DNA of 64,000 bases from an uncultured Alphaproteobacteria bacterium (GTDB lineage Bacteria > Pseudomonadota > Alphaproteobacteria > HIMB59 > GCA-002718135): NCBI GenBank assembly GCA_902522865.1, contig CABYXC010000001.1, positions 121,693 to 185,692 on the forward strand, in the 5' to 3' direction. The notes under the pieces are model-generated. The model saw only the letters and a list, made by a program, of their open reading frames with translations. It was not told where the DNA came from and ran no database searches. Of this stretch, positions 10,599-24,953 are shown piece after piece. A program made the translations under genes and the position numbers. How positions within the stretch are numbered: position 1 is the first letter of the stretch; the number at the start of each line of letters is the position of its first letter.

Positions 10599-11492
10599 TT
10601 ACTTCATGCCTGTCAAAGTAATTCCTTCAATAAATCGTTTTTGCGCGATTATAAAAGCAACAATAAGGGGAACTGTTACAGTAACTATTGAAGCCATCAT
10701 AGGACCAAATTCGTCACTATCAATCCCACCTCTGAATTCTCTTATACCAAGCGGTGGAGTAAAGAGATCTCTATTTCCTGTTATTACCATACGAGGCCAG
10801 AAATAATCATTCCAGTGTGCAACAACTGAGAATATTGCAAAAGCAAGTAATGCTGGTATTGCAGTTGGAAGCATTACTTTCCATACGATTGCGTACTCTC
10901 CCATGCCATCCATCCTGGCGGCATCAATTAATTCATCGGGCACAGTCATAAAGAATTGCCGCATTAAAAAAATTCCAAACACCGATATAGTCCAGGGAAG
11001 TATCAAGGCGGAATAGGTGTCAACTAATCCTGCCTGAGCCAACATAACATATAATGGAAGCGCAATTCCGTGAACTGGAATGAGCAAGCAAAATAAAACC
11101 ATCGAGAAAACAAATTCTCGTCCGTAAAACCGTAACTTTGCGAGTGCATACGCACATGGTAAGGCGACTAAAACCTGAATGATGAAGATTGATAAAGTAA
11201 CAATGACACCATTCATTAAGTATCTAGGAATAGGAGCTTTTTCAAAAGCAAACCAATAGTTGTATTGATATGGCTTCATTGTACATGTTTCTTCTGAATA
11301 GCCAGTTTTAACACATACGGGAAACGTTTGAGTTTCTTGTGCACCAATAAGACCGCCAGAAATTGATTGGATTTCTTGCTGAGATTTTAATGACATAGAA
11401 ACCATCATATAAAAAGGGAGCATCACTACGATTGCACCAATAATTAAGATTGCATGCTTCCAACCTTCTCCAATATATTGTTTAGCTTCCAT
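10599..11492 (-). CDS. ABC transporter permease (MalG/UgpE-like)
   Basis: 297 aa, six TM. EAA-loop region DELIDAARMDGMGEYAIVWKVMLP. Confidence 0.85.
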   Translation of the reverse strand: MEAKQYIGEGWKHAILIIGAIVVMLPFYMMVSMSLKSQQEIQSISGGLIGAQETQTFPVCVKTGYSEETCTMKPYQYNYWFAFEKAPIPRYLMNGVIVTLSIFIIQVLVALPCAYALAKLRFYGREFVFSMVLFCLLIPVHGIALPLYVMLAQAGLVDTYSALILPWTISVFGIFLMRQFFMTVPDELIDAARMDGMGEYAIVWKVMLPTAIPALLAFAIFSVVAHWNDYFWPRMVITGNRDLFTPPLGIREFRGGIDSDEFGPMMASIVTVTVPLIVAFIIAQKRFIEGITLTGMK

Positions 11493-12448
11493 TAATAATG
11501 AACCCTCTTCTCAATGACATATCTTTGGAAAAACGTTAACACAAGAATAAATCCAATAAAGACAACAGTGATTGCTGCACCGATACTTGTTAAGTTTTGT
11601 TGAATAGCTTTTTCAAAGATTGCATACATCATAACATACGTTGTTTTTGATGGACCACCTTTGGTTAGTATTTCGATGGTATCAAATACTTGAAACGTTC
11701 TAATTGTAGTAATAGTCACAACAAACAACGTTGTTGGACCAAGCATTGGCCATGTAACAAGTTTAAATTGCTCCCATGTAGATTTAGCCCCATCCATTTC
11801 TGCAGCTTGGTATAACTCCCTTGGTATACTTGTTAAGCCAGCTAAATATAAAACCATATTAAAACCAAAAGCCTGCCAAATTCCTATGAAACATACTGTC
11901 CAAATCGCAGTATTTTTTTGTTTTAACCAATATGGAAAATCCATGTTGTTTGCACATGCTGCAGCATACCAACTTTCTTGTGAGTCTACCCATGGCAACC
12001 AATGAAAACCAAGAATGAATTCCCTAACTCCCCCACACCCATTTGCTAAAAAACTATTTACAATTCCTAATGTTGGATGAAGAGTAAATTCCCATGCAAT
12101 TGCCATTGCAAGAAGAGTTGCCATAACTGGAAGAAAAAAAATTGTTTTATATATATCAGCACCAAACCTTAGTGAATTTATGAGCATAGCAGCACATAAT
12201 CCAAGTACAACAGAAATTGGAACGACAACAATAACATACGTCGCTGTGGCCCAAATCATTTTGACATATGTTTTTCGATTGAACATCTTGTCATAATTTT
12301 CTAGTCCAACCCACTCGAATGTTTTGTTTCCTAAATTGTAGTCAGTAAAAGAAATACCTCCTGCAAGAAAAAGAGGAAAGATTAAAATAATTATCATCAG
12401 TATGATTGCTGGTGCAATAAACCATATGTGAGCTTTTGAATTATGCAT
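11492..12448 (-). CDS. ABC transporter permease (MalF/UgpA-like)
   Basis: 318 aa. EAA-loop LYQAAEMDGAKSTWEQFKLVTWPML. 1-nt overlap with the next permease gene. Confidence 0.85.
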   Translation of the reverse strand: MHNSKAHIWFIAPAIILMIIILIFPLFLAGGISFTDYNLGNKTFEWVGLENYDKMFNRKTYVKMIWATATYVIVVVPISVVLGLCAAMLINSLRFGADIYKTIFFLPVMATLLAMAIAWEFTLHPTLGIVNSFLANGCGGVREFILGFHWLPWVDSQESWYAAACANNMDFPYWLKQKNTAIWTVCFIGIWQAFGFNMVLYLAGLTSIPRELYQAAEMDGAKSTWEQFKLVTWPMLGPTTLFVVTITTIRTFQVFDTIEILTKGGPSKTTYVMMYAIFEKAIQQNLTSIGAAITVVFIGFILVLTFFQRYVIEKRVHY

Positions 12449-13574
12449 TAGTAAATTGAACTCTCATTCCTGCTTGATTAAATAGTAATGCTTTATCTGA
12501 AACTCTTTTTATATTTACACTTGAACCGTTTGAAATTTGGTGAGTAAATTGTGGTAAGCCCCTTACAATTATTTTATTTGAACCGTCTTCAATATTTACA
12601 TGAAAGAAAATATCTGAACCTAAATTTTCTCTATATGCAACTGTTCCACTAAATGTATTTTCATTACTTTCATTTGTAATTTCTAAATGTTCTGGTCGAA
12701 TACCAATATGTAAATCTGTATTACTTTCAGAACTTTTTCTTTTTAGGTTAACGTTGAGAAAACCAACCGTCCCACCAGAGTCCGAAGTTCCTTTAAATAT
12801 ATTTATTTTTGGACTTCCAACAAACTGAGCTACACTTAATGAGGAAGGATTATCATATACTTCTTCAGGTGTATCTAGTTGTAATAAATTTCCATCAATC
12901 ATAACTGCCATTCTAGAAGACATAGTTAACGCTTCTGCTTGATCATGTGTTACGTACACAAAAGTAGTTTTAAGTGAATTATGAAGTTCAGATAGTTCAG
13001 ATCGCATGTGAACTCTCAAAGCTGCATCTAAATTTGAAAGAGGCTCATCCATTAAAAAGGCAACAGGCTCTCTAACCATAGCACGACCAAGAGCAACTCT
13101 TTGTCTTTGACCACCTGACAATTGTCCTGGTTTTCTATCCAATAGTTCTGAAATTTTTAGAGTTTCAGAAGTTTTATTTACTAATTGATTTATAGATTCT
13201 GTTTTCTCTTTTTTGCTTGGAGAAAAATTACCAATCAAGGGCAGTCTTTCAAATGCATTATAATCCCTGAGTCTTAATGGAGTTTCTAAATTTCTTCTTA
13301 CTGTGAGATGAGGATAAAGAGCATATGATTGGAAGACCATTGCCAAATCTCTTTCACTGGCTCTAACTCTATTTACATTTTTATTATCTATTAATACATC
13401 ACCTGAAGTCTGCTGTTCCAATCCTGCAATTATTCTAAGTAATGTAGATTTACCACAACCAGATGGACCAACTAACGTTAAGAATTCTCCATCGTTTATA
13501 TCAACATTCAAATTATTAAGTACTTGTGTAGACCCAAATGACTTTGAAATATTTTTAAGTGATATTGTCCCCAC
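12441..13574 (-). CDS. ABC transporter ATP-binding protein (MalK/UgpC-like with C-terminal regulatory/TOBE-like domain)
   Basis: 377 aa with GTG start. Walker [10 protein letters not shown], signature LSGGQRQR, Walker B FLMDEPLSNLD. GGGGG Shine-Dalgarno-like run upstream. Confidence 0.9.
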   Translation of the reverse strand: MGTISLKNISKSFGSTQVLNNLNVDINDGEFLTLVGPSGCGKSTLLRIIAGLEQQTSGDVLIDNKNVNRVRASERDLAMVFQSYALYPHLTVRRNLETPLRLRDYNAFERLPLIGNFSPSKKEKTESINQLVNKTSETLKISELLDRKPGQLSGGQRQRVALGRAMVREPVAFLMDEPLSNLDAALRVHMRSELSELHNSLKTTFVYVTHDQAEALTMSSRMAVMIDGNLLQLDTPEEVYDNPSSLSVAQFVGSPKINIFKGTSDSGGTVGFLNVNLKRKSSESNTDLHIGIRPEHLEITNESNENTFSGTVAYRENLGSDIFFHVNIEDGSNKIIVRGLPQFTHQISNGSSVNIKRVSDKALLFNQAGMRVQFTNA

Positions 13575-13750: not shown

Positions 13751-14992
13751 GTGTACGATAATTTAGAAATTAATAAAAGAGAATATCCAAGCTCTTTCTC
13801 AAAAACTGCTATTGTTATATGCCTTGATGGTAGTCAAAAAGAGTATCTCGAAGAAGCATCAAAATCTAATCTTACACCAAATCTTGATAAATTAATTGCA
13901 AGTGGTGAAAACCTACTAGTACACAGCGCTATTCCAAGTTTTACAAATCCAAATAACATTTCGATTGTAACAGGCCAACCAAGTTCTGTACACGGTATAT
14001 GCGGAAACTTCTTTTATACACCTGAGACGGGTGAAGAAGTTATGATGAATGACCCAAAATATATGCGAGCACCAACTATTTTTGAAAAATTTTACAATTC
14101 TGGTTCTAAAATTGCTCTTGTTACTGCAAAAGACAAGTTGAGAACACTTTTAGGAAACGGATTAAGTTTTGATGATGAGAGAGCTATTTGTTTTTCTGCT
14201 GAAAAATCTGATCAAGCAACAAAAGATCTCAATGGTATAGATAATGTAAACGATTGGTTGGGGATGCCAGTGCCAGAAGTATATTCTGAAGGACTCTCTG
14301 AATTTGTAATGGCTGCAGGTGTAAAACTTCTTGAAGAGTTTAAACCAAATATTATGTATTTATCGACTACGGATTATATTCAACACAAATATGCACCGGG
14401 AAATGAAACAGCAAATAAATTTTATGCAATGTTTGATAAATATATTGGTCTTTTAAATAAGGAGAATGTTTCTATAATCATCACAGCAGATCACGGAATG
14501 AAACCAAAATCAAAAGAAGATGGTTCACCTAATGCAATATTTTTACAAGATTATTTAGATAAAAAATTTGAACCAAACATGGCTAAAGTCATCCTACCAA
14601 TTACAGATCCATATGTTGTTCATCATGCTTCACTTGGTTCTTTTGCAACAATTTATTTAGAAGACAAGAGCAAGGTAGATTCAGTTGTAAATGCTATTAA
14701 AGAAATAAAAGATATAGAAGTTGTTTTAACAAAAGATGAAGGATGCTCTACTTACAATTTACCTCCTGATAGAATGGGAGATATTATATGTATGTCTTCA
14801 GAATTTATGACTATTGGTTCATCGGAAGATAAACACAATCTTTCTGGATTAAATGAACCTTTACGTTCTCATGGAGGACTCCATGAAAGAGAAGTGCCAT
14901 TCATATCAAATTTAAAATTACAAAACTTAGATACTAGCAAACAATTATATAACTATGATGCATTTTATTATGCAATAAATGGAGCCCTATGA
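13751..14992 (+). CDS. phnA: phosphonoacetate hydrolase (alkaline-phosphatase superfamily)
   Basis: 413 aa with GTG start. Blocks [51 protein letters not shown] and LRSHGG, which I recognise from characterised phosphonoacetate hydrolase. 4-nt overlap with the next gene. Confidence 0.85.
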
Positions 14993-16431
14993 TGCACAAA
15001 AAAATGATTAATGAAGCAATACGTATTGCTGGAGAAAAAGTTACTTCAGATAAAACAATAAATGTTGAGTACCCTTTTACAGGTGAAGTAATCGGAACGG
15101 TTCCAGCCGGTACCGCAGAGCATGCAAGAAAGGCTTTAGATATAGCTGCAAATTATCAGCCTAAACTTACAAGATATGAGAGACAAAAAATTCTTCAAAC
15201 TGCTGCAGAAGTACTTGTTAAAAGAAAAGAAGAAATTTCTGATATTATTACTTTAGAACTTGGTATCTCAAAACAAGATTCTTTATACGAAGTAGGAAGA
15301 GCTTTCGATGTATTTTCATTAACGGCTCAACTTTGTATTCATGATGATGGAGAAATATTTTCTTGTGATTTAACTCCACATGGAAAAGCCAGAAAAATAT
15401 TTACCATAAGAGAACCTTTAACGGCAATCTCAGCAATCACCCCATTTAATCATCCTTTGAATATGGTAGCGCATAAAATTGCACCTTCAATTGCAACTAA
15501 TAATTGTACTGTATGTAAACAAACAGAATTAACACCTTTAACAGCAATGGTACTCGCCGATGTTTTATATGAAGCAGGCCTGCCACCCGAAATGTTTTCA
15601 GTTGTAACTGGATGGCCTCAAGACATTGGATCAGAAATGATCAAAAATCCAAACATTGATCTAATTACTTTTACAGGCAGTGTGGGTGTAGGAAAATTAA
15701 TTGCTGAACAAGCTGGATACAAAAGAACTGTTCTTGAGTTAGGTGGTAATGATCCATTAATTGTTTTAAATGACTTAGATGGTGATGATCTTAAAAAAGC
15801 TGTTGAACTAGCTGTTACGGGAGCAACGAAAAATTCTGGTCAACGTTGTACAGCTGTTAAAAGAATATTGGTTCAAGAATCCATTGCAGATCAATTTGTT
15901 GAAATGGCTCTTGAGCGTGCAAAGAAAATTAAATTTGGTGATCCTATGAATATGGAAACAGACTTAGGTACAGTTGTTAATGTTCAAGCTGCAGAACTTT
16001 TTGATAAAAGAGTTTCTATGGCTGAAGAAGACGGCGCAAAAATTTTATATCACCCTGGAAGAAAGGGTGCTTTGTTACCTCCAATAGTTGTAGATCATGT
16101 TGATCCTAAAAGTGAATTAGTTTTAGAAGAAACATTTGGTCCAGTTATCCCAATCATTCGTGTGCCTAATGACGATGAAGCTGTAATGAAAATATCTAAT
16201 TCAACCGCATTCGGATTATCATCTGGTGTATGTACAAATAACTTCATGCGAGCAAAAAAATATATTCAAGGTTTAAATGTTGGTACGGTAAATATTTGGG
16301 AGGTTCCAGGTTATAGAATTGAAATGTCTCCTTTTGGAGGAATTAAAGATTCAGGTCTTGGTTACAAAGAGGGTGTTATTGAAGCAATGAAAAGCTTTAC
16401 TAATGTAAAAACCTTTTCGCTACCTTGGTAA
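14989..16431 (+). CDS. phnY: aldehyde dehydrogenase, probable phosphonoacetaldehyde dehydrogenase
   Basis: 480 aa. ALDH blocks ELGGN and GQRCTA (catalytic Cys). Translationally coupled to phnA. Confidence 0.75.
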
Positions 16432-16566: not shown

Positions 16567-17820
16567 ATGAAAAAATTAATTACAGGATTTGCAGCCGTAT
16601 TAGCTTTTGGTTTTTATGGTTCTGTTAATTCAGCTAAGTCTATTGAAATAGAAGTTGCTTATCCTTATTCAGGATTATTCGATGTTACGTTTCAAGCTAT
16701 TATGCCAGAGTTTGAAAAAGCACATCCAGATATTCAAGTTAAATTTAGAGCAACTTATGAAAACTATGAGGATGCAACTGCAACAATCTTCAGAGAGTCT
16801 ACTTCAGGTAATTTACCAGATGTAACAATGCAAGGTCTTAACAGACAAGCACCTCTAGTTGACAAAGGCATTGCTAAGTCTTTAGAGCCATTTATTGCAA
16901 AAGAAGCTGCTTTTGAAAAAGATGGTTACCATTCTGCTATGTTAAGTCTTTCAACATTTGGTGGTGAAGTTTATGGATTACCATTTTCTGTATCAACACC
17001 AGTTGGATATTATAACATGGATTTATTAGCTGAAGCAGGTGTAAATAGTATTCCAACTAACTGGGACGAAGTTATTGCAGCATGTAATAAATTGGAAGCA
17101 GCAGGTAAAGGAACTCTATACTTTGGTTGGAACATCACAGGTAACTGGTTCCACCAAGCATTAATGCACACTCAGAATGTTCCAATGGTTAAAGATGGAG
17201 CTGTAAATATGGGTGGTGATGCAGGACTTGCAACGTTAGAGCAAATGAAAGCAATCATGAGCGGATGTAATATGCCAAACTATTCAATTGCTGATGGTCA
17301 AGCTGCGTTTAACGCAGGTACTATTGGTATGATGTTCTGGTCTACTTCAAGCTTGGGTTCAGTTAATGCTGCAAAGGCAGACTTTGTTTTAAAGACTGCA
17401 CCATTCCCTGGAATGGCTGGAGTTAACAATGGAACACCTGCAAGATTACCAGCAGGTGGAAACGCTGCAATGTTAGTGTCTACATCTGATGATCCAGCAA
17501 GAGTTGATGCTGCATGGACTTTCTTAAAGTTCATTACATCAGGTATCGGTGCTGCATTAGTTGCTGAAACAACTGGATATGTTCCACCAAACAAAGCAGC
17601 GAATGAATTATTAGGTGATTTCTATAGTAAAAACCCTAATAAACTTACTGCAGTTGAACAACTTCCACTTCTTGCAGATTGGTTTGCATATCCTGGAGAA
17701 AATGGATTAGCTGTTACGCAGGTAATCTATGATTACACAGAAGAAATTGCTACAGGCGACGCTGATGATATGGCAGATCTCCAAGAAGAAATGATGGAAG
17801 AAATAAACGATCTTATGTAA
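16567..17820 (+). CDS. ABC transporter periplasmic substrate-binding protein, family 1
   Basis: 417 aa with signal peptide MKKLITGFAAVLAFGFYGSVNSA and a strong GGAGGG RBS. Probably the missing SBP for the divergent permease/ATPase genes. Confidence 0.8.
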   Translation: MKKLITGFAAVLAFGFYGSVNSAKSIEIEVAYPYSGLFDVTFQAIMPEFEKAHPDIQVKFRATYENYEDATATIFRESTSGNLPDVTMQGLNRQAPLVDKGIAKSLEPFIAKEAAFEKDGYHSAMLSLSTFGGEVYGLPFSVSTPVGYYNMDLLAEAGVNSIPTNWDEVIAACNKLEAAGKGTLYFGWNITGNWFHQALMHTQNVPMVKDGAVNMGGDAGLATLEQMKAIMSGCNMPNYSIADGQAAFNAGTIGMMFWSTSSLGSVNAAKADFVLKTAPFPGMAGVNNGTPARLPAGGNAAMLVSTSDDPARVDAAWTFLKFITSGIGAALVAETTGYVPPNKAANELLGDFYSKNPNKLTAVEQLPLLADWFAYPGENGLAVTQVIYDYTEEIATGDADDMADLQEEMMEEINDLM

Positions 17821-17907: not shown

Positions 17908-18987
17908 ATGCCTCTTAAAACAACTACAATAGGTGCTTATCCAAAACCGAAACAAACACCTATTCAAGATTGGTTTTTAGGGACAAAATCAGAAGAAGAG
18001 AGAAAAGCGTCAAAAGGATTATTATCAAATTGGTCACCTGGCGCATATGAAAAAGCATTAGAGTCTGCAGGTGTGGATGCTGAAAAATTATTTTTAGCAG
18101 CAATTAAAGAAGTTATAACTGATCAAGTAAATGCAGGTATCGATGTTCCAACAGATGGTGAAGTTAGGCGCGAGAGTTATGTATTATATCAATGTCGATT
18201 TTTAAATGGTGTAAGTTTTAAGGAAGTTACACATAAGTCAGTAAGACAAGGTGCGTTCGAAGCTGACCTTCCAACTATTGTTGCTCCAATTTCAAGTAAA
18301 GAAATACGTATGCATTTAGACTGGAAGAGTGCACAACAATTTACAAAAAACCCAGTTAAAATTACCCTACCTGGACCAATGACAATTACAGATTCAATTG
18401 CCAACAATTACTATGATGACATGAAAAAACTTGGTTTTGATTTAGCATTAGCCCTCAATAAAGAAGTTAAAGCACTTGTAGATGCAGGTTGTCAGTATAT
18501 TCAAATTGATGAACCAGTATTTGCTAGAAAGCCCGATGAAGCTCATTCTTACGGTATGGAAAATTTAGAAAGAATGATGCATGGTATTCCTAAAGAAGTG
18601 CAACGTGTTTGCCATATTTGTTGTGGTTATCCTAACTCATTAGATTCAGAAGGTTATAAAAAGGCTGATCTAGATGCTTATGATAGAATTGCATCACTTG
18701 TAGATGATTCAACTATTGATGAAGTATCTTTAGAAGATTCACATAGGCATAATGATTTAAATCTTTTAGAAAAATTTACTAAAACAAAAGTAATTTTTGG
18801 ATTTATTGATATTGCAAAAAGTAGAATGGAGTCTGTTGAAGAGGTAAGAGTTCGTATCAAAGATTCACTTGAACATATTGATGAACACCGCTTAATAGCT
18901 GCACCAGATTGTGGTTTAGGTTTCTTTACACGAGAACAAGCAATTGAGAAAATGACAATTTTAACTAAAGCGGCAAAATCAATTTAA
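17908..18987 (+). CDS. MetE C-terminal-domain-like Zn-dependent alkyl/methyltransferase (short, single-domain)
   Basis: 359 aa. N-terminal TTTIGAYPKP. Putative Zn ligands H-x-C in VCHICCGYP and Cys in APDCGLG, as in cobalamin-independent methionine synthase-type enzymes. Confidence 0.65.
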   Translation: MPLKTTTIGAYPKPKQTPIQDWFLGTKSEEERKASKGLLSNWSPGAYEKALESAGVDAEKLFLAAIKEVITDQVNAGIDVPTDGEVRRESYVLYQCRFLNGVSFKEVTHKSVRQGAFEADLPTIVAPISSKEIRMHLDWKSAQQFTKNPVKITLPGPMTITDSIANNYYDDMKKLGFDLALALNKEVKALVDAGCQYIQIDEPVFARKPDEAHSYGMENLERMMHGIPKEVQRVCHICCGYPNSLDSEGYKKADLDAYDRIASLVDDSTIDEVSLEDSHRHNDLNLLEKFTKTKVIFGFIDIAKSRMESVEEVRVRIKDSLEHIDEHRLIAAPDCGLGFFTREQAIEKMTILTKAAKSI

Positions 18988-18991
18988 GGTA

Positions 18992-20104
18992 ATGTGGAAT
19001 TATTTTAATCCTGTTGAAATTATCTTTGGAGAAAATAGATTTAAAGAAGTACATGATGCTCTTAAAAATAAGAACTACATCATAATAACTCATCCAGAAG
19101 AAATTTTTAAAAAATATAGCGATGAATTAAAATCTTCTTCAAATCCACCACTATCCGTTATGACGGATGTTCAGCCTAATCCAGATTATAAGGATATTTT
19201 AGAGCTACAAAAAAAATTTTCTTCAATCAATGAATCGGTAGATTATATTTTAGCTATAGGTGGTGGCTCTGTTACAGACACAGCTAAAGCAATTGCTGCA
19301 TTTAAAGATAAACAAGAATATCTAACAGATTTCGTTCGCAATAAGAAAAGTCCAAGAGTCGAAAATCCAATCAAGATTATTGCAATACCTACAACTTCAG
19401 GAACATCAAGTGAGCTTACGTGTTGGGCCACAATTTGGGATAAAGAAAAAAACAATAAATTATCTTTGGCGCATAAATCTCTTTATGCAGAAAAAACAAT
19501 TATCGATCCATCTATTATGGTTGATAAGCCTTTAGGCTTGACCATTTCAACTGGTTTAGATGCTCTCTCCCATTCAATGGAAAGTATTTGGAATATTAAT
19601 GCAAATCCAGTTTCTGCTTCTCATGCAATACAAGCATCAAAATTAGTATTAGAAAATTTACCACTTCTCACTAAAGATTTAAGAAATGTTGAATTACGCT
19701 CAAACATTGCATTGGCTTGTGTTCATGCTGGTTTAGCGTTTTCCAATACGAAAACTGCTATTGCGCACAATCTATCATACCCTGTGACACTCAATTACGG
19801 TATTCAGCATGGTATTGCTTGTTCATTTACTTTACCCATGATTACTAAAAGTATGGTTGGAATTGATAGTGTAGCTGAGGAGAGACTAAAATTAATTTTT
19901 AACGATAATTTAGAAAACGCTGCAAATCATCTGAGTGAATTTATGCGTTCTTTAGAGGTTCCTCTTAACTTAAATGAAATAAAAGTTCCTGTTCAAGAAT
20001 GGAATAATATAGTAGATGATGCGTTTTTAGGGGAACGAGGTAAAAACTTTATTGGTAATAAAGAAGCCTTCATTTCTTCGGCTAAATCAATGGGACTTTA
20101 TTAG
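18992..20104 (+). CDS. iron-containing (group III) alcohol dehydrogenase
   Basis: 370 aa. AIGGGSVTDTAK glycine motif and His-rich metal-site blocks (LDALSHSMES, AIAHNLSYP). Confidence 0.8.
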   Translation: MWNYFNPVEIIFGENRFKEVHDALKNKNYIIITHPEEIFKKYSDELKSSSNPPLSVMTDVQPNPDYKDILELQKKFSSINESVDYILAIGGGSVTDTAKAIAAFKDKQEYLTDFVRNKKSPRVENPIKIIAIPTTSGTSSELTCWATIWDKEKNNKLSLAHKSLYAEKTIIDPSIMVDKPLGLTISTGLDALSHSMESIWNINANPVSASHAIQASKLVLENLPLLTKDLRNVELRSNIALACVHAGLAFSNTKTAIAHNLSYPVTLNYGIQHGIACSFTLPMITKSMVGIDSVAEERLKLIFNDNLENAANHLSEFMRSLEVPLNLNEIKVPVQEWNNIVDDAFLGERGKNFIGNKEAFISSAKSMGLY

Positions 20105-20106: not shown

Positions 20107-21213
20107 ATGAAAAAAAATTTCAGGTTTTATGATAACAGACAAAAATATTTATTATTTGTCACAACAACAAATGAAAAAAATCAAATTGCTGAAGCGATAC
20201 GTCCTCACGTAAATAAAATTAAACCGCAAAAACCTGGCTTAAAAATATTTGATGCCGGTATGGGTGATGGTTCCTTACTTATGAATGTTATGCGTCAGTG
20301 CCACGAAGCTAGGCCTAATGTACCTCTATTAGTTTGCACAAAAGAAATAAGTATTGAAGATGTAAGATTAGGTTTAGAAAAACTACCCGATAGGTTTGTT
20401 GAACATAAGAATACGGTTTTTGTTATTTCAAATCTACACTACGCTGAAGCTGCAAACCTAAAATCAAAAAATGACGTTAAACAGAAAAAAATTAATTGGA
20501 ATATTATTAAATTAAAAGGAGACACTTCTCTTGAATTTGCTCAACAATTAAGAAAACAAAATGAATTTTTAGAAAAAAAATGGAATATAGAAATTAACAA
20601 AAAGTCAGGTAACCATACTTATAAAGAGCCTTCAGTCATGGTTATCTACCGTGAAGATCAAGAATTTAATGTAAATGAATTAATACCTACCAAAAAAAAA
20701 TCAGATAATAAATTTGATCTCATTATTGCTTCACAGCCTTATCGTTCAAGAATTTCAGCAGAAAAGAAATCAAAATACGTCATCGAACCAATGATTAGAG
20801 CGTTAAAATCAAAAGGGAAATTATTAACTATTCATGCTTCAGGAAAAGATCCTGCTAATGAAATAATTCGTAAAATTTGGCCAAAAGAGGACCCATTTCC
20901 TTCTCTTGGAAATAGTATCATTTCTTATCTTAAGAAAAATTTAGATAAAGATTTGTTAAGCAGTTTATCTTTTGGAGAAAAAAGAATTATTAAATGTAAA
21001 TTGAGAGCTCTACCAACAGAAATCAGCGGAGGTATAGCGACATCATTAGTTTTTTCTGCTTGGAATGCCTCCATATATGTCAATCAAATGGATGATGATA
21101 AAGTAATGAAGGTAGAAAAAACAAAAAACTATGAAAAAATTGTTCAAAATATTGTTGCGAAAAATAAAGGCCTTTATTTCAACAATGAAATATTTGTAAT
21201 CGAAAAAAAATAA
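20107..21213 (+). CDS. hypothetical protein with class-I SAM-methyltransferase-like motif (possibly histamine N-methyltransferase-like fold)
   Basis: 368 aa. IFDAGMGDGS resembles SAM motif I. Later blocks are FDLIIASQPY and KGKLLTIHASG. The family assignment rests on recollection only. Confidence 0.35.
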   Translation: MKKNFRFYDNRQKYLLFVTTTNEKNQIAEAIRPHVNKIKPQKPGLKIFDAGMGDGSLLMNVMRQCHEARPNVPLLVCTKEISIEDVRLGLEKLPDRFVEHKNTVFVISNLHYAEAANLKSKNDVKQKKINWNIIKLKGDTSLEFAQQLRKQNEFLEKKWNIEINKKSGNHTYKEPSVMVIYREDQEFNVNELIPTKKKSDNKFDLIIASQPYRSRISAEKKSKYVIEPMIRALKSKGKLLTIHASGKDPANEIIRKIWPKEDPFPSLGNSIISYLKKNLDKDLLSSLSFGEKRIIKCKLRALPTEISGGIATSLVFSAWNASIYVNQMDDDKVMKVEKTKNYEKIVQNIVAKNKGLYFNNEIFVIEKK

Positions 21214-21217: not shown

Positions 21218-22018
21218 TTATTTAAACCAATTAACTTCTGTTTTTAAAAAATCCTCTGTATGAATAATTAAAGCGTCAGATCGAATTATTGCAACATTAT
21301 AATTTGTATCTGTATTAGCCGTTCCTAAACGATATTCATTTGAAAAGTTAGGTATTAGAGGAGACCAAGTACTTCTTGGGGAGGAAAAAGTAATTCCACA
21401 ATAAGAACCAGAACTTGTAATGTGTTGATGACCAAAAAAAATATGTTTTATTATCTTATTATTTTTAGTTAAAATTTGTTGAAACTCTTTTTTTTGTTGT
21501 AATCCTATTCCATCACTTTCCTCTTTTACTAATGCCAGTGGATTATGATGCATAAAGATGTACGTATCTGTATTAGTTTTACCTAAAATATTATTTAACC
21601 ATTCTTGCCTCTCTTCACAGTAATGTCCTTGGTGAGTGTTAATTAGATTAGTATCTATAAAAATTAAACGTTTATTATCTATATCCTTAAAGTATTGAAT
21701 AAATCCATTTGGATCGGTTTCAATATTAGGAAAGTTTATTTTAAACTCATCTCTGTTATCATGATTACCTATAATGAGTTGAGGATTTAAATTCTTTGGC
21801 AGGCCTGCTTCATCAATGATTTTTATAAATAACTGATAAGAATCTTTATCACCTAAGTCTGTAATATCGCCAGTGATGGCAAATAAATCTGCATCACCAT
21901 GATTATTTTTTATATGACTTAATGCTTTTTTAAATTTACTGACAGGATCTATGCCATGAATCTTATCTATATAAATATGAGGGTCTGAAAGATGAATAAT
22001 TTTCATTATTTTATACAA
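21218..22018 (-). CDS. calcineurin-like metallophosphoesterase (CpdA/GpdQ-type phosphodiesterase)
   Basis: 266 aa. Motifs HLSDPH, GDITDLG, GNHD, MHHNP, GHQH. The likely true start is the internal MKIIHLSD. Confidence 0.8.
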   Translation of the reverse strand: MYKIMKIIHLSDPHIYIDKIHGIDPVSKFKKALSHIKNNHGDADLFAITGDITDLGDKDSYQLFIKIIDEAGLPKNLNPQLIIGNHDNRDEFKINFPNIETDPNGFIQYFKDIDNKRLIFIDTNLINTHQGHYCEERQEWLNNILGKTNTDTYIFMHHNPLALVKEESDGIGLQQKKEFQQILTKNNKIIKHIFFGHQHITSSGSYCGITFSSPRSTWSPLIPNFSNEYRLGTANTDTNYNVAIIRSDALIIHTEDFLKTEVNWFK

Positions 22019-22026
22019 ATTTATAA

Positions 22027-22659
22027 TTAGATCGCAGTTTTAAAATAAATATACTTATTAAATTCCTCTTTTAAGTCGATGCTAACTCTTGCATGTACTT
22101 TACCTTGTTTTCCATGAAATGATTGTTTTTCTTTAACTGGAAACACCCCTTCATGCCAAATGTTTGGATGAATATACAAACCTTTTGATCCATCACAATA
22201 AAATGCTTTGAAATGTTCTGGTTCGATGTCGTCTGTTGGTAAAGCTAAAGGACAAATAAATGGTTTATTTTCTGCAGGAAAAAAAAGCTGACCTCCATCA
22301 GGATGATAATTTGCATGCCATAGAAATATTTTTGTTGGATCTGAATATTTATCTTTTTGCAATTCTTGATCGGGGTTATTGGCATAACCCAGTATATATT
22401 TTCCATCTACTTCATAATCGCTCTTATGTTGGACAGCATTATTTTGTCCATAAAGCACATCACCTTGCCACCAGGTATCAAAAGAACCTTCGGTAGTTCC
22501 ACCTTCATTACCAGTTCCCTCTTCTATGTCGCGCCATCCTTGTTTTGGCCAAGTAACAATTTCAATATCACTATTTTCAAAACTATCGATTAAATATCCG
22601 TATCCTTTAAGATTTTCATTTGTTGCTTTAACTAATGGTATTTCAATTTCTTTTGTCAT
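22027..22659 (-). CDS. ureidoglycolate-lyase-like / cupin-fold protein, function unknown
   Basis: 210 aa. Block order LKGYGYLI ... NYHPDGGQLFFP ... KAFYCDGSKGLYIHPNIWHEG parallels AllA-type ureidoglycolate lyase as I remember it. Confidence 0.5.
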   Translation of the reverse strand: MTKEIEIPLVKATNENLKGYGYLIDSFENSDIEIVTWPKQGWRDIEEGTGNEGGTTEGSFDTWWQGDVLYGQNNAVQHKSDYEVDGKYILGYANNPDQELQKDKYSDPTKIFLWHANYHPDGGQLFFPAENKPFICPLALPTDDIEPEHFKAFYCDGSKGLYIHPNIWHEGVFPVKEKQSFHGKQGKVHARVSIDLKEEFNKYIYFKTAI

Positions 22660-22666
22660 TATTTTG

Positions 22667-23764
22667 TTAGTTTAATGTTAATCCCAATTCAGTAACGACT
22701 TCTTTTACAGCTTTTATTGTATCCATCATGTCTTGTTCATCTAAATTACCAATACACCCAATTCTAAAAGTTTCTGCCACTGTTAGTTTTCCTGGATAAA
22801 TTAAAAAATCTTTTTCACTAAGAGCATTATAAAATTTCTCAAAGTCAAATTTAGGATCATTAGGTTGTTTAAACGTAATAATAATTGGTGCTTGTAAATT
22901 ATCAGGAAGTAATTGCTCAAATCCCAACTCTTTCATTCCATTACAAATAATTTCACAATTTTTTTTATATCTTTTACCTCTTCCTTTTACACCGCCTTGT
23001 TCTTTATGTTCTTCAATAGCTTGGTTGAATGCAGCTAATACGTGTGTTGGAGGTGTAAATCGCCATTGTTTATTTTTTTCCATTGCTTGCCATTGATCAT
23101 ACAAGTCTAGACTTAGTGAGTGACTATTGCCTTTTGCATTTTGAATAACTTCATTTTTAACAAGAATGAAACCAACACCTGGCACACCTTCTAAGCATTT
23201 GTTTGATGAAGCGGCTACAGCATCAAAAGTAATTGTTTTAGAACTTAAGGGTAATGCACCAAAGGCACTCATTGCATCGATGAATAACGATAAATTTTTC
23301 CCCTCAACCAATTTTGCAATGTCTTCAATAGGATTTAAAATACCCGATGTTGTTTCACAATATACAGCAAAGACGTGTGTTAAGTTGTTGCTATCAATTA
23401 AGTCTTCAATTTTATTGATGTCATGTACTTCATGTTCAGCAACTTCATATTCAATAAAATCTCTCCCTAAATATGTGCACATTTTTTTCATTCTTTGTCC
23501 GTAAGCACCATTGATCAGAATCAGAATTTTAGAATCTTTTTGAGTAAGAGAGCTTACCATCGACTCTACGGCAAAAGTTCCACTTCCCTGCATTGGAACA
23601 CATTGATATTTATCTTCACCGTCTATTAATTTAACAAGGGAATCTCTAATTGATGCATTGAGATCAATAAATTTTGTATCTCTCGAACCCCAATCATGAA
23701 GCATAGCCTCTTTTGTTGACATCGATGTCGTGAGAGGACCAGGGGTTAATAATTTTTTATCCAT
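22667..23764 (-). CDS. phnW: 2-aminoethylphosphonate:pyruvate aminotransferase
   Basis: 365 aa class-V aminotransferase. LLTPGPLTTS N-terminus, SSNKCLEGVPG PLP-lysine block. Phosphonate gene context. Confidence 0.8.
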   Translation of the reverse strand: MDKKLLTPGPLTTSMSTKEAMLHDWGSRDTKFIDLNASIRDSLVKLIDGEDKYQCVPMQGSGTFAVESMVSSLTQKDSKILILINGAYGQRMKKMCTYLGRDFIEYEVAEHEVHDINKIEDLIDSNNLTHVFAVYCETTSGILNPIEDIAKLVEGKNLSLFIDAMSAFGALPLSSKTITFDAVAASSNKCLEGVPGVGFILVKNEVIQNAKGNSHSLSLDLYDQWQAMEKNKQWRFTPPTHVLAAFNQAIEEHKEQGGVKGRGKRYKKNCEIICNGMKELGFEQLLPDNLQAPIIITFKQPNDPKFDFEKFYNALSEKDFLIYPGKLTVAETFRIGCIGNLDEQDMMDTIKAVKEVVTELGLTLN

Positions 23765-23852
23765 TAAATATTTACTTAATAAATATTATTATAAATTTGA
23801 TCAATCTTATTAAAGTTGGAATTGAATTTATTTTCTAATAAGTTAATTATAA

Positions 23853-24428
23853 ATGAAAATGGAAGAAAATATTGTAGACTATCTCTTACATCTTTTGAAA
23901 ACAAAAGGTGCTGATATTCAATATGGTAATGAGGATGTGACCCAGCTTGAGCACGCACTCCAATGTGCTGAACTTGCTGAAAAACATAAATTACCAGGAC
24001 CAACAATTGCTGCAGCATTACTGCATGATGTTGGCCACCTTATCTATGAGGACGGCGATCCCATTCATGAAGGGAAAGATGGTCATCATGAAAATTTAGG
24101 TGCTGATTTTTTAAAAAAATATTTTGGTGAGGATGTTATTCTACCAATTAGAGCACATGTTGACTCAAAAAGATATTTATCAAGTGTTGAAGAAGGTTAT
24201 TATGATAGTCTATCAGAAGCATCGAAACTTTCGTTAAAAGTTCAAGGTGGTCCTTTCACAAAAGAAGAAGCAGATGCGTTTATAAGCAAACCTTTTATGG
24301 ATGAAGCAGTAGAGCTTAGAAGATTTGATGATTTAGCAAAAATTCTAGATAAAAAAACTCCCGATGTTGAACATTTCCGCCCCTATTTAGAAGAAGCAAG
24401 ACAGTCTTTTTTAGCTAAACAAGCGTAA
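23853..24428 (+). CDS. HD-domain protein of the PhnZ/TmpB phosphonate-oxygenase type
   Basis: 191 aa. QLEHALQCAELA and AALLHDVGHL blocks match my memory of PhnZ (QLEHSLQCA, AALLHDLGH). Further His/Asp ligands follow (HHEN, HVDSKRY). Confidence 0.65.
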   Translation: MKMEENIVDYLLHLLKTKGADIQYGNEDVTQLEHALQCAELAEKHKLPGPTIAAALLHDVGHLIYEDGDPIHEGKDGHHENLGADFLKKYFGEDVILPIRAHVDSKRYLSSVEEGYYDSLSEASKLSLKVQGGPFTKEEADAFISKPFMDEAVELRRFDDLAKILDKKTPDVEHFRPYLEEARQSFLAKQA

Positions 24429-24953
24429 ATGCAATTTAGCAATTATGATTTTATTGACTCTAAGTCATTTGCAGGCAAAATTATATTAACTTCTTTCCCA
24501 GGTCTTAACTCTAATGGTTTATTTGAAGAAACAATTTTAGCAAACGAATTAGAAATATTTAAAAATAATAATTGTAGTTCTATTACTTCTTTTGTTGAAG
24601 ATAGCGAATTTGAAAAATTGTGTGATAAAACTTTGTTTGTCAAAAATATTTATGAACATAAATTACATTGGTACCATTTACCCATTTATGACATGGGAGC
24701 ACCAGATAAAGATTTTAAATATAAATGGGAAACAACAAAAGTTTTATTAAAGAACGAATTGATAGATGGTAAAAACATAGTTTTACATTGCCGTGGAGGA
24801 AAAGGAAGAGCTGGCACTATAGCTGCTATTTTACTTGTTGAATTTAATTATGAAAAACAAGAAGCTATTGATCTAGTACGATCAAGAAGAAAAGGAGCTA
24901 TTGAGTCAAAAATCCAAGAAGATTTTATTTTTTCTTATCGAGCAGTTAATTAA
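24429..24953 (+). CDS. CX5R dual-specificity/tyrosine-phosphatase-fold protein
   Basis: 174 aa. Active-site HCRGGKGRAGT. Starts 1 nt after the HD gene stop. Confidence 0.7.
   Translation: MQFSNYDFIDSKSFAGKIILTSFPGLNSNGLFEETILANELEIFKNNNCSSITSFVEDSEFEKLCDKTLFVKNIYEHKLHWYHLPIYDMGAPDKDFKYKWETTKVLLKNELIDGKNIVLHCRGGKGRAGTIAAILLVEFNYEKQEAIDLVRSRRKGAIESKIQEDFIFSYRAVN

What the first reader, a model, noticed from the sequence alone, without database searches (positions are those of the whole stretch)
21218..23764. phnW operon carries a cupin and a GpdQ/CpdA-like diesterase: possible release of aminoethylphosphonate from phosphonate esters
Seen: phnW is followed, with 7-8 nt spacers, by a 210-aa ureidoglycolate-lyase-like cupin and a 266-aa binuclear metallophosphoesterase with all five calcineurin-like motifs. 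Established: GpdQ-type enzymes hydrolyse glycerophosphodiesters and also phosphonate monoesters, and are linked to Ugp-like transport in enterobacteria. The importer next to this locus is UgpAEC-like. Inference: imported glycerophosphono-diesters (phosphonolipid head groups) could be cleaved by the diesterase to free 2-AEP for PhnW. The cupin role is open. Several phosphonate-transforming enzymes (HEPD, MpnS, HppE) are cupins, so an Fe-dependent reaction is conceivable.
Basis: partly seen in the sequence, partly recalled or inferred. Interest (0 to 1): 0.6.

Follow-up and report, generated by a model that had tools for sequence, protein, structure and literature searches.

The report
SAR11 phosphonate operon: phnW, cupin, diesterase
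The three genes are real and sit at the core of a phosphorus-scavenging island in the abundant ocean bacterium SAR11, and the small cupin protein turns out to be an unstudied partner of phosphonate-degrading genes in several unrelated bacteria, while the diesterase's proposed role of freeing phosphonates from esters is plausible but untested.

Summary
PhnW scores 512 bits against a cut-off of 296. It is followed by a 210-aa AllA-fold (ureidoglycolate-lyase-like) cupin and a class-III metallophosphodiesterase with all five motifs. The diesterase model matches GpdQ best (TM 0.84). Its start is probably the ATG at 22006, giving 262 aa and a 20-nt spacer rather than 8.

The window is SAR11. Across 57 SAR11 and marine-alpha genomes, the cupin follows phnW in 54 (the other 3 contigs are cut there), and the diesterase is present in 52.

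The cupin also follows phnW in Betaproteobacteria and sits in a phnW/phnY cluster in Arenicellales. In other contigs it follows tmpA-tmpB, the oxidative trimethyl-AEP (TMAEP) pathway. It therefore goes with AEP-type catabolism in general, not with ester hydrolysis. It keeps the residues it shares with Ni-dependent AllA (H119, Q124, H164, H169). Its substrate is unknown, and I found no paper describing it.

The diesterase occurs whichever transporter is nearby (Ugp-like, OpuAC-like, PhnS2-like or none), so the Ugp link is not obligatory. Two results favour an ester-feeder role:
- One SAR11 lineage lacks the diesterase but has a PehA-like phosphonate monoester hydrolase heading the operon.
- Two genomes have a UgpB-like transporter cassette inserted beside the diesterase.

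A PhpC-type alcohol dehydrogenase in the island makes hydroxyethylphosphonate esters an equally good candidate substrate.

The parts
22667..23764 (-). phnW, 2-aminoethylphosphonate:pyruvate aminotransferase (365 aa)
   Evidence: NCBIfam equivalogs NF010006 512 bits (cut-off 296), TIGR03301 466 (361), TIGR02326 459 (401). SSNK motif with K189.
22027..22659 (-). AllA-fold (ureidoglycolate-lyase-like) cupin, 210 aa, function unknown. Putative metal residues H119, Q124, H164, H169 (H119 codon 22303-22305, H169 codon 22153-22155).
   Evidence: Pfam PF04115 42 bits. AF2 pLDDT 90.7. Foldseek top hits are AllA structures 2bdr, 1xsq, 1yqc. hhalign to E. coli AllA gives 97% probability over residues 111-186. 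Invariant residues. Follows phnW in 54/57 SAR11-type genomes.
21218..22018 (-). Class III binuclear metallophosphodiesterase of GpdQ/Rv0805 fold. Probable true start is the ATG at 22006 (262 aa).
   Evidence: Pfam Metallophos 62 bits. NCBIfam SpdA 173 bits (cut-off 400), CpdA 64 (225). Best PDB sequence hits GpdQ and Rv0805. AF2 pLDDT 91.9. Foldseek GpdQ 3d03 TM 0.84/0.81, Rv0805 0.82. Motif positions, start site.
23765..23852 (.). 88-nt AT-rich divergent intergenic region between phnW and the HD gene; presumed promoter region
   Evidence: Sequence read. The consensus promoter scan is not above chance. Function inferred only.
23853..24428 (+). PhnZ/TmpB-family HD-domain oxygenase (191 aa), with no 2OG-dioxygenase partner in the window
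   Evidence: TIGR03276 201 bits (cut-off 215), TmpB 154, PhnZ1 152. No TauD-family match anywhere in the 64 kb.
24429..24953 (+). Dual-specificity/PTP-like phosphatase (174 aa)
   Evidence: Pfam PTP-SAK 49 bits, DSPc 30. Co-occurs with the HD gene in 50/57 loci.
20107..21213 (+). Unknown 368-aa protein convergent with the diesterase. Replaced by an S-methyltransferase in some SAR11 variants.
   Evidence: Only a weak Methyltransf_31 hit, no NCBIfam hit. Present in 53/57 loci. PF02574 gene in its place in L085-L087 and L095.
18992..20104 (+). PhpC-type iron-family alcohol dehydrogenase; probable 2-hydroxyethylphosphonate dehydrogenase (HEP to phosphonoacetaldehyde)
   Evidence: TIGR03405 364 bits (cut-off 424). 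PhpC-type enzymes in degradative clusters oxidise HEP to phosphonoacetaldehyde (PMC13576164).
17908..18987 (+). MetE-like (cobalamin-independent methionine synthase catalytic domain) protein, role unknown
   Evidence: Pfam Meth_synt_2 121 bits. A 48%-identical gene precedes phnA in L060.
16567..17820 (+). CUT1-type ABC substrate-binding protein, distantly UgpB-like
   Evidence: SBP_bac_8/1. UgpB 65 bits (cut-off 411). PDB hits split between UgpB-type and sugar binders.
14989..16431 (+). phnY-type phosphonoacetaldehyde dehydrogenase (480 aa); assigned by position and homology, not scanned against families itself
   Evidence: Its 86%-identical homologue in L001 is an Aldedh-family gene next to phnA. 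69% identical to the phnY-position gene of L064, taken as PhnY from context. Overlaps the phnA stop.
13751..14992 (+). phnA, phosphonoacetate hydrolase
   Evidence: TIGR02335 465 bits (cut-off 408).
10599..13574 (-). UgpC/UgpA/UgpE-like ABC ATPase and two permeases
   Evidence: UgpC 386 bits (432), UgpA 104 (335), UgpE 128 (297).

Best explanation
phnW-cupin-diesterase is the conserved core operon of a SAR11 phosphonate-catabolism island. The island lies within a wider phosphate-stress region.

Shown: PhnW is a true 2-AEP:pyruvate transaminase. PhnA, and a PhnY assigned by position and homology, lie 5 kb away and complete the known route from AEP through phosphonoacetaldehyde and phosphonoacetate to acetate plus phosphate.

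Shown: the cupin is a distinct long subfamily of the AllA fold. It keeps the residues it shares with AllA (H119, Q124, H164, H169). It is a near-obligate neighbour of phnW in SAR11, and it also sits beside phnW or tmpA-tmpB in other bacterial lineages.

Inferred: the cupin is a cytoplasmic, metal-dependent lyase-type accessory enzyme of aminoethylphosphonate-type catabolism. It acts on something common to the PhnW and TmpAB routes and takes no part in ester hydrolysis. Its substrate is unknown.

Shown: the third protein is a class III binuclear phosphodiesterase of GpdQ/Rv0805 fold with no obvious signal peptide. In the places examined, its close subfamily is found only behind phnW-cupin in SAR11-type DNA.

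Inferred: it is a feeder esterase that frees AEP, N-methyl-AEP or 2-hydroxyethylphosphonate from phosphonate monoesters (lipid head groups or glycan esters). The released phosphonate would then go to PhnW, or to the PhpC-type dehydrogenase, and on to PhnY and PhnA.
For: - Gene identities.
- Structure models: pLDDT 90.7 and 91.9, with AllA and GpdQ as best solved-structure matches.
- Cupin conservation: 4,147 relatives found in the large protein collection. Invariant residues across 65 diverse sequences include W37, R43, H119, Q124, H169, H189 and E199. AllA is Ni-dependent (PMC3793230).
- SAR11 context: 54/57 genomes have phnW-cupin and 52/57 have the diesterase.
- Cupin without the diesterase, still beside phnW: MarineAlpha5 and two Pelagibacteraceae.
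- Betaproteobacteria: aepX-type ABC genes, then phnW, then the cupin, with a 4-nt overlap.
- Arenicellales: phnY-DUF72-cupin, with phnW divergent.
- Oxidative pathway: tmpA-tmpB-cupin with overlapping genes, TmpA 480 bits (cut-off 400) and TmpB 336 (300). TmpA-TmpB fusions followed by the cupin occur in other contigs.
- Ester-feeder role: GpdQ hydrolyses phosphonate monoesters (PMC3693508). A PehA-like phosphonate monoester hydrolase (440 bits) heads phnA-phnY-phnW-cupin in L060, which has no diesterase. A UgpB-like cassette lies between the cupin and the diesterase in L035 and L038. HEP occurs as polysaccharide esters in marine organic matter, and PhpC-type enzymes oxidise HEP (PMC13576164).
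Against: - No biochemical data exist for either protein.
- The cupin family is broad. Most non-SAR11 members (about 86 of 103 loci) have no phosphonate gene next to them. Their contexts are varied: a pyrimidine/hydantoin cluster, ornithine cyclodeaminase, thiolase/SDR/PhaC genes, housekeeping genes. Many of these contigs are short.
- I could not name one reaction useful to both the PhnW and TmpAB routes. TMAEP is quaternary and cannot carry N-linked groups, which argues against an AllA-like C-N cleavage releasing the phosphonate.
- The diesterase's closest curated family is a 2',3'-cNMP phosphodiesterase.
- SAR11 genes are tightly packed everywhere, so short spacers alone do not prove functional coupling.
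- More distant relatives of the diesterase (43% identity) are not phosphonate-linked.
Confidence: 0.45

Rival explanations
1. Glycerophosphono-diesters (deacylated phosphonolipids) enter through the Ugp-like ABC importer, and the diesterase splits them into glycerol and 2-AEP for PhnW.
For: The ABC genes are Ugp-like. The diesterase has the GpdQ fold. A cassette whose binding protein is closest to E. coli UgpB (110 bits) is inserted directly beside the diesterase in L035 and L038. GpdQ accepts phosphonate monoesters.
Against: The diesterase is equally conserved in islands with OpuAC-type, PhnS2-type or no adjacent ABC importer. The window's binding protein is only 65 bits to UgpB and is as close to sugar binders. 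The Ugp-like binding protein travels with the MetE-like and PhpC-type genes (41-44 of 57 loci), which points to HEP-type substrates instead.
Confidence: 0.2
2. The diesterase is a general phosphate-scavenging or nucleotide-turnover enzyme (2',3'-cNMP or ordinary phosphodiesters). It is co-located with other phosphate-stress genes and is not phosphonate-specific.
For: The best curated sequence match is SpdA, a 2',3'-cNMP phosphodiesterase, aligned end to end. Rv0805 also prefers 2',3'-cNMP (PMC4222275). The region also holds a PHO4 phosphate carrier, PhoU-like, DSP phosphatase, LpxH-like phosphoesterase, glycosyltransferase and OlsF/GlsA-like acyltransferase genes. A relative at 43% identity is not phosphonate-linked.
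Against: In every context examined, the close subfamily (52% identity or more) lies directly behind phnW-cupin: 52 genomes plus 9 metagenome places. A different phosphonate-ester hydrolase type takes its place in another lineage.
Confidence: 0.3
3. The cupin is an Fe(II)/O2-dependent phosphonate oxygenase, in the manner of HEPD, MpnS or HppE, or a substitute hydroxylase for the partnerless PhnZ-like HD enzyme next door.
For: H119, Q124 and H169 could form a 2-His-1-Gln site like that of MpnS (my own knowledge of MpnS). The HD oxygenase in the window has no TauD-family partner within 64 kb. HppE (Psf4) appears among weak fold hits.
Against: The closest relatives by sequence and fold are Ni-dependent lyases, with HppE at TM 0.29 only. 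The cupin co-occurs with a complete TmpA+TmpB pair. It also occurs with phnW where no HD gene is present.
Confidence: 0.1
4. The cupin has a general, non-phosphonate function, for example breaking down a hemiaminal-type or 2-oxo-acid adduct, or handling 3-oxo acids or aldehydes. It was recruited to phn/tmp operons only in some lineages, or sits there without a pathway role.
For: Contexts elsewhere are heterogeneous. One member is fused to a glyoxalase domain. Others have SDR, thiolase, PhaC, GST or ornithine cyclodeaminase neighbours. The same invariant residues occur in all contexts.
Against: There are at least five independent architectures beside phosphonate genes, several with overlapping or near-abutting coding regions. 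Retention is near-universal in the streamlined SAR11 island.
Confidence: 0.2
5. The cupin is a genuine ureidoglycolate lyase working in purine/ureide nitrogen recovery.
For: Public annotations call family members ureidoglycolate lyase. The Pfam hit is above its cut-off.
Against: All eight NCBIfam ureidoglycolate lyase models (seven equivalogs, one subfamily) score 22-35 bits against cut-offs of 160-315. Only about 76 residues align with AllA, at 28% identity. No allantoin-pathway gene was seen among the annotated neighbours in the window or SAR11 loci.
Confidence: 0.04

Closest known systems
PhnW-PhnY-PhnA hydrolytic pathway for 2-aminoethylphosphonate, with its known accessory 'Pbf' enzymes (PbfA, PbfB/C/D, PbfF, PbfG; Peracchi group)
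   Same: PhnW and PhnA pass curated equivalog cut-offs, and a PhnY is assigned by position and homology. The island also carries a PhpC-type HEP dehydrogenase. As with the Pbf enzymes, extra genes in the cluster probably widen the substrate range.
   Different: Neither a cupin nor a metallophosphodiesterase turned up in the text searches of the four phosphonate-catabolism papers checked for those terms, or in the library-wide searches. Here AEP and HEP functions share one island, which those authors say is uncommon.
AllA / ureidoglycolate lyase (EC 4.3.2.3, PF04115; PDB 1yqc, 1xsq, 2bdr)
   Same: Same fold (best Foldseek hits). Shared HPxGxQ and HxxxWH motifs. AllA is a metal (Ni2+)-dependent lyase that releases urea from an alpha-hydroxy carbon.
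   Different: About 50 residues longer, with a unique conserved N-terminal half (W37, R43, GTGNEGG loop). Only 13-15% identity over the structural alignment. Fails all NCBIfam ureidoglycolate lyase cut-offs. No ureide-pathway context. Found with phosphonate genes.
GpdQ glycerophosphodiesterase of Enterobacter aerogenes (PDB 3d03, 2zo9)
   Same: Best full-length structural match (TM 0.84/0.81). All metal-ligand motifs align. GpdQ is promiscuous towards phosphonate monoesters.
   Different: Only 22% identity. The close subfamily is confined to SAR11-type phosphonate islands. Substrate untested.
SpdA (S. meliloti) and Rv0805 (M. tuberculosis), class III 2',3'-cNMP phosphodiesterases
   Same: Best curated sequence model, aligned end to end at 173 bits. 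Cytoplasmic, with five class III motifs. Rv0805 fold TM 0.82.
   Different: Score far below the SpdA equivalog cut-off of 400. No cAMP-signalling genes nearby.
PehA / phosphonate monoester hydrolase (sulfatase branch of the alkaline phosphatase superfamily)
   Same: A PehA-like gene heads a phnA-phnY-phnW-cupin operon in another SAR11 lineage (L060). It may be a functional analogue of the diesterase.
   Different: Unrelated fold. Not present in this window. 440 bits against a cut-off of 900, so it is not an equivalog either.
TmpA/TmpB oxidative pathway for 2-(trimethylammonio)ethylphosphonate, and PhnY*/PhnZ
   Same: The same cupin family directly follows tmpA-tmpB in other bacteria. The window has a PhnZ/TmpB-family HD gene divergent from phnW.
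   Different: The window has no TmpA/PhnY*-type dioxygenase. The cupin is not part of the published two-enzyme pathways.

Membership tests
PhnW (2-AEP:pyruvate aminotransferase) | Score above curated equivalog cut-offs | tested here: met
   512/296, 466/361, 459/401 bits
PhnW (2-AEP:pyruvate aminotransferase) | PLP-binding lysine of class V aminotransferases | tested here: met
   SSNK with K189. Aminotran_5 hit over residues 29-300.
PhnW (2-AEP:pyruvate aminotransferase) | Clustered with enzymes that consume phosphonoacetaldehyde (PhnX, or PhnY+PhnA) | tested here: met
   PhnA passes its equivalog cut-off (465/408), and PhnY is assigned by homology, both within 9 kb
AllA / ureidoglycolate lyase | Pfam PF04115 domain above gathering score | tested here: met
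   42.2 bits against 23, but only profile positions 76-139 of 162
AllA / ureidoglycolate lyase | Score above NCBIfam ureidoglycolate lyase cut-offs (orthology) | tested here: not met
   22-35 bits against cut-offs of 160-315 for eight models
AllA / ureidoglycolate lyase | AllA cupin fold | tested here: met
   Foldseek top five hits are all AllA-type, E 1e-9 to 3e-8, target TM 0.65-0.74
AllA / ureidoglycolate lyase | Conserved core residues (HPxGxQ, HxxxWH) that are the likely metal/active site | tested here: met
   H119, P120, G122, Q124, H164, W168, H169 are invariant, including in E. coli AllA. Their role as ligands is inferred.
AllA / ureidoglycolate lyase | Genomic association with allantoin/ureide catabolism | tested here: not met
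   No such genes seen among the annotated neighbours in the window or SAR11 loci. One distant member lies in a pyrimidine/hydantoin-type cluster.
AllA / ureidoglycolate lyase | Ni-dependent urea release from (S)-ureidoglycolate | not testable with these tools
   Enzyme assay needed
Class III phosphodiesterase / calcineurin-like metallophosphoesterase | Five motifs D-(X)n-GD-(X)n-GNH[E/D]-(X)n-H-(X)n-GHXH | tested here: met
   DPH 12, GDITD 50, GNHD 84, MHHN 156, GHQH 196, aligned to GpdQ and Rv0805
Class III phosphodiesterase / calcineurin-like metallophosphoesterase | Fold of GpdQ/Rv0805, including the C-terminal part | tested here: met
   TM 0.84 to GpdQ over 271 columns, 0.82 to Rv0805
SpdA / CpdA equivalogs | Score above curated cut-off | tested here: not met
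   SpdA 173/400, CpdA 64/225
GpdQ-type glycerophosphodiesterase (function) | Hydrolysis of glycerophosphodiesters and phosphonate monoesters | not testable with these tools
   Substrate specificity of class III enzymes cannot be predicted from sequence (PMC4222275)
Ugp glycerol-3-phosphate/glycerophosphodiester ABC importer | Scores above UgpB/A/E/C equivalog cut-offs | tested here: not met
   UgpC 386/432, UgpA 104/335, UgpE 128/297, UgpB 65/411. Same transporter family (CUT1), not orthologues.
HEPD/MpnS/HppE phosphonate-transforming Fe cupins | Detectable sequence or close fold similarity | tested here: not met
   No family hit. HppE (Psf4) only at E 4e-3, TM 0.29. HEPD and MpnS are not among the listed matches.
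HEPD/MpnS/HppE phosphonate-transforming Fe cupins | 2-His-1-carboxylate/Gln iron site | tested here: inconclusive
   H119, Q124 and H169 have cupin-motif spacing, but the same residues occur in Ni-dependent AllA

The most novel reading that the evidence does not exclude
The long AllA-like cupin is a new, widespread accessory enzyme of aminoethylphosphonate-type catabolism. It would carry out a reaction not yet described for phosphonates, one that serves both the PhnW (hydrolytic) and TmpA/TmpB (oxidative) routes. It is carried by most SAR11 cells that have this island. Together with a phosphonate-ester-specific GpdQ-fold diesterase, it would give SAR11 access to esterified phosphonates such as lipid head groups and glycan-bound AEP or HEP.
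Probability: 0.3. Interest if true: 0.8.

Novelty: new variant of a known kind. Interest (0 to 1): 0.6.

Why it matters
Phosphonates make up a large share of marine dissolved organic phosphorus, much of it esterified to lipids and polysaccharides. SAR11 is the most abundant heterotroph in the sea.

The known AEP pathways act on free AEP. How bound phosphonates are released is poorly understood. No accessory enzyme of the cupin or metallophosphoesterase type turned up in the literature I searched.

A cupin that travels with two mechanistically different AEP/TMAEP pathways in several lineages is a concrete, cloneable candidate for a missing step. The diesterase, and the PehA-like enzyme that replaces it elsewhere, are direct candidates for the de-esterification step. 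Both hypotheses can be tested with recombinant proteins and 31P NMR.

Tried and rejected
- The search for related loci with the 27-sequence alignment failed because no stretch was conserved enough. A 9-sequence subset worked.
- Greedy longest-ORF neighbour clustering on high-GC loci gave spurious antisense ORFs (cluster C1) and was of little use. I replaced it with targeted Pfam/NCBIfam scans and tblastn probes.
- A pooled Pfam scan of 129 immediate neighbours of non-phosphonate-linked cupins showed no dominant theme: SDR 7, LysR 6, thiolase 5, alpha/beta hydrolase 5, PhaC 3. Context alone does not reveal the family's general substrate.
- Cupin as a replacement for PhnY*/TmpA: rejected as the main reading, because it co-occurs with an intact TmpA.
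- Cupin as part of the esterase step: rejected, because it occurs with phnW or tmpAB where no esterase is present.
- Cupin as a PhnX analogue: judged unlikely, because phnY and phnA accompany it in the SAR11-type and betaproteobacterial clusters. In Arenicellales only phnY, not phnA, was seen nearby.
- I considered hemiaminal lyase, opine-type adduct lyase, alpha-hydroxyphosphonate epimerase or lyase, and aldehyde-hydrate dehydratase as specific chemistries. None fits all contexts and none could be tested.
- Promoter/terminator scan: nothing above shuffled expectation.
- Rfam scan of the whole window: no hits.
- Literature searches for phnW with cupin, ureidoglycolate or phosphodiesterase found nothing relevant.

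Full report
**1. Observation**

The phnW-cupin spacer is 7 nt.

The listed TTG start of the third gene lies 8 nt after the cupin stop. An ATG 12 nt further on (22006) begins MKIIHLSDPH, which is where homologues begin. The likely product is therefore 262 aa with a 20-nt spacer.

The family assignments hold up:
- **PhnW** passes three curated equivalog cut-offs (512/296, 466/361, 459/401 bits) and has the SSNK lysine at K189.
- **The cupin** hits PF04115 at 42 bits (cut-off 23), but only over residues 119-182. It fails all eight NCBIfam ureidoglycolate lyase models (22-35 bits against 160-315).
- **The diesterase** has the five class III motifs at residues 12, 50, 84, 156 and 196. They align with the metal ligands of GpdQ and Rv0805.

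**2. Where the window comes from and what surrounds the genes**

Identical cupin genes occur in single-cell genomes labelled uncultured Alphaproteobacteria or Pelagibacteraceae. G+C is about 30%. The window is SAR11.

| Coordinates | Strand | Gene |
|---|---|---|
| 10599-13574 | - | UgpC/A/E-like ABC genes |
| 13751-14992 | + | phnA (465/408 bits) |
| 14989-16431 | + | phnY-type aldehyde dehydrogenase (by homology) |
| 16567-17820 | + | CUT1 binding protein |
| 17908-18987 | + | MetE-like gene |
| 18992-20104 | + | PhpC-type iron-family alcohol dehydrogenase (TIGR03405, 364/424) |
| 20107-21213 | + | unknown 368-aa gene |
| 21218-23764 | - | the operon in question |
| 23853-24428 | + | PhnZ/TmpB-family HD oxygenase |
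| 24429-24953 | + | DSP-type phosphatase |

Beyond these lie PHO4 and PhoU-like genes, an ArsC-like gene, an OlsF/GlsA-like acyltransferase, an LpxH-like phosphoesterase and a glycosyltransferase. From my own knowledge of SAR11 phosphate-starvation lipid remodelling (PlcP/Agt), this looks like a phosphate-stress island. I did not test that.

**3. The cupin**

The family is large. The large protein collection holds 4,147 relatives. After clustering at 50% identity, 393 representatives score below 1e-10.

An alignment of 65 diverse members has these invariant residues: W37, R43, T49, G50, G54, G58, F60, A75, Y118, H119, P120, D121, Q124, F126, L138, A139, D143, F153, G160, W168, H169, Q185, G186, H189, E199.

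The AlphaFold model is confident (pLDDT 90.7). Its best solved-structure matches are all AllA-type ureidoglycolate lyases (E 1e-9 to 3e-8, 13-15% identity). DUF4867 follows, then generic cupins. HppE (Psf4) appears only at TM 0.29.

Profile comparison with E. coli AllA aligns only residues 111-186, at 28% identity. The residues shared with AllA include H119, P120, G122, Q124, H164, W168 and H169. AllA is a Ni2+-dependent lyase that releases urea (PMC3793230).

The protein is therefore an AllA-fold cupin that keeps the residues of the shared core, which I take to be the metal site. It is not an AllA orthologue. Its N-terminal 110 residues, with a conserved WPxxGWR...GTGNEGG segment, are specific to this subfamily.

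**4. Conservation of the arrangement**

In 57 species-level SAR11-type genomes the counts are as follows:

| Gene | Loci with gene (of 57) |
|---|---|
| phnW directly upstream of the cupin | 54 (the other 3 contigs end there) |
| diesterase | 52 |
| unknown 368-aa gene | 53 |
| HD and DSP | 50 |
| Fe-ADH | 44 |
| MetE-like | 43 |
| binding protein | 41 |

The cupin stays with phnW where the diesterase is missing. This holds in two MarineAlpha5 bins and in two Pelagibacteraceae that carry phnA-phnY-phnW-cupin as one co-directional gene string.

Outside the Alphaproteobacteria I examined 103 loci (23 genomic, 80 metagenomic):
- **phnW adjacent or in the cluster, 11 loci.** A betaproteobacterial group has SBP_bac_6-type ABC genes, then phnW, then the cupin, with a 4-nt overlap. 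Arenicellales have phnY-DUF72-cupin with phnW divergent.
- **tmpA-tmpB adjacent, five or six loci.** In L169, tmpA (480 bits, cut-off 400) and tmpB (336, cut-off 300) run into the cupin with overlapping stop and start codons. L165 and L164 have the same type. L150 and L162 carry a TmpA-TmpB fusion, then a URO-D-like gene, then the cupin; in L162 a PhoU-like gene and PHO4 follow.

The cupin is thus linked to both the hydrolytic and the oxidative routes for AEP-type phosphonates, in at least five different architectures.

Most other members have unrelated or uninformative neighbours:
- a pyrimidine/hydantoin-type cluster in Sneathiella
- ornithine cyclodeaminase in Dongia
- FAD oxidases
- SDR, thiolase and PhaC genes
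- housekeeping genes
- one fusion to a glyoxalase domain

. Many of those contigs are short.

I found no paper that mentions this protein in phosphonate clusters.

**5. What the cupin might do**

*Shown:* fold, conserved core and genomic linkage.

*Inferred:* a metal-dependent lyase-type reaction on a compound common to the PhnW and TmpAB routes.

I could not identify that compound:
- Only the phosphonate end can be conjugated in both AEP and the quaternary TMAEP. That argues against an AllA-like C-N cleavage that releases the phosphonate.
- The cupin occurs without any esterase, which argues against a role in ester hydrolysis.
- It co-occurs with an intact TmpA, which argues against a substitute hydroxylase.

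I rank [quoted passage not shown] first. "General enzyme recruited in some lineages" comes second, an Fe/O2 oxygenase third, and a true ureidoglycolate lyase last.

**6. The diesterase**

The model is confident (pLDDT 91.9). It matches GpdQ best (TM 0.84/0.81, 22% identity, full length) and then Rv0805 (TM 0.82).

By sequence, the nearest curated family is SpdA, a 2',3'-cNMP phosphodiesterase (173 bits, cut-off 400). CpdA scores 64. The authors of the SpdA study stress that class III specificity cannot be read from sequence.

Relatives at 52% identity or more lie directly after phnW-cupin in every place examined. A 43%-identical relative does not.

The transporter next to the island varies:

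| Transporter type | Where seen |
|---|---|
| Ugp-like | this window |
| OpuAC-type, with SDR and sometimes a dimethylglycine-dehydrogenase-like and a homocysteine S-methyltransferase gene | L085-L090 |
| PhnS2-type (400 bits, cut-off 393) | L095 |
| none nearby | L001 |

The diesterase is therefore not tied to Ugp-type import.

Three observations still favour an ester-feeder role:
- **(a)** L060 lacks the diesterase, but its operon opens with a PehA-like phosphonate monoester hydrolase of the sulfatase family (440 bits).
- **(b)** In L035 and L038 a cassette is inserted between the cupin and the diesterase. Its binding protein is closest to E. coli UgpB (110 bits).
- **(c)** GpdQ itself hydrolyses phosphonate monoesters.

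The PhpC-type dehydrogenase also matters here. Such enzymes oxidise 2-hydroxyethylphosphonate to phosphonoacetaldehyde in degradative clusters, and HEP occurs esterified to marine polysaccharides (PMC13576164). HEP esters are therefore as good a candidate substrate as glycero-AEP.

**7. Verdict**

The pathway itself is known. The two extra genes are uncharacterised members of known superfamilies, in a context not described in the literature I could search.

The most valuable result is the link between the long AllA-like cupin subfamily and two different AEP/TMAEP pathways. This makes it a testable candidate for a new step in marine phosphonate use.

Noticed in passing
window 16567-20104: A CUT1 binding protein, a MetE-like protein and a PhpC-type iron-family alcohol dehydrogenase (probable HEP dehydrogenase) are inserted between phnY and the unknown 368-aa gene. 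This combines HEP and AEP catabolism in one island. The module is absent from some SAR11 variants (L001, L088) and present in 41-44 of 57 genomes.
   Followed up: partly
window 23853-24953: A PhnZ/TmpB-family HD oxygenase (just below the TIGR03276 cut-off) is followed directly, with no gap, by a DSP/PTP-like phosphatase. No TauD-family hydroxylase partner exists anywhere in the 64 kb. It may act on imported 1-hydroxy-AEP, or it may have an unknown partner.
   Followed up: partly
window 20107-21213; L085 9839-10747; L095 9839-10747: The unknown 368-aa protein has no family and only a weak methyltransferase-like stretch. It is conserved in 53/57 loci. In other SAR11 variants a homocysteine S-methyltransferase (PF02574) occupies its position.
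   Followed up: partly
L085 1-8345, L088 2301-8316: SAR11 island variants place several genes upstream of phnW-cupin-diesterase: an OpuAC-type (betaine/choline-like) ABC transporter, an SDR, one or two choline-kinase/APH-like kinases and, in L085-L087, an 811-aa dimethylglycine-dehydrogenase-like protein (DAO-FAO_M-GCV_T). This suggests a demethylation route from N-methylated AEP (TMAEP) to AEP, distinct from TmpA/TmpB.
   Followed up: partly
L060 1183-9513: A Pelagibacteraceae genome (AG-414-J16) has a single co-directional string of genes: PehA-like phosphonate monoester hydrolase, MetE-like, phnA, phnY, phnW, cupin, EamA. It has no class III diesterase.
   Followed up: partly
L035 939-4123; L038 5392-8404: A second ABC cassette is inserted on the opposite strand between the cupin and the diesterase. 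It has a binding protein closest to E. coli UgpB plus two permeases. The diesterase is left divergent from the binding-protein gene.
   Followed up: partly
L178 8001-8642 (Pinctada imbricata chromosome scaffold VSWD01000011.1): An intronless 213-aa member of the cupin family lies in a 67-Mb pearl-oyster scaffold. The only other called gene in the locus starts about 7.9 kb downstream. It may be a horizontal transfer into an animal group known to be rich in AEP lipids.
   Followed up: partly
protein P0235 (418 aa): One family member has the cupin fused to a C-terminal glyoxalase/VOC domain.
   Followed up: no
L162 4713-6014, L150 4725-6026, L172 33-1175: A 433-aa protein with only a weak URO-D-like hit lies between a TmpA-TmpB fusion and the cupin. 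BLAST finds no similarity to the window's MetE-like protein.
   Followed up: partly
window 27019-32143: Downstream of the island lie an ArsC-like LMW phosphatase/reductase, an OlsF/GlsA-like lipid acyltransferase, a 476-aa acidic protein with no family, an LpxH-like metallophosphoesterase and a diacylglycerol-glycosyltransferase-like gene. The last pair resembles the SAR11 PlcP/Agt phosphate-starvation lipid-remodelling genes (my own knowledge, not tested).
   Followed up: partly
L064 7255-7959, L151 2471-3157: In Arenicellales a DUF72 protein sits between phnY and the cupin. No phnA was detected within the loci, so the step after phosphonoacetate is unaccounted for there.
   Followed up: no
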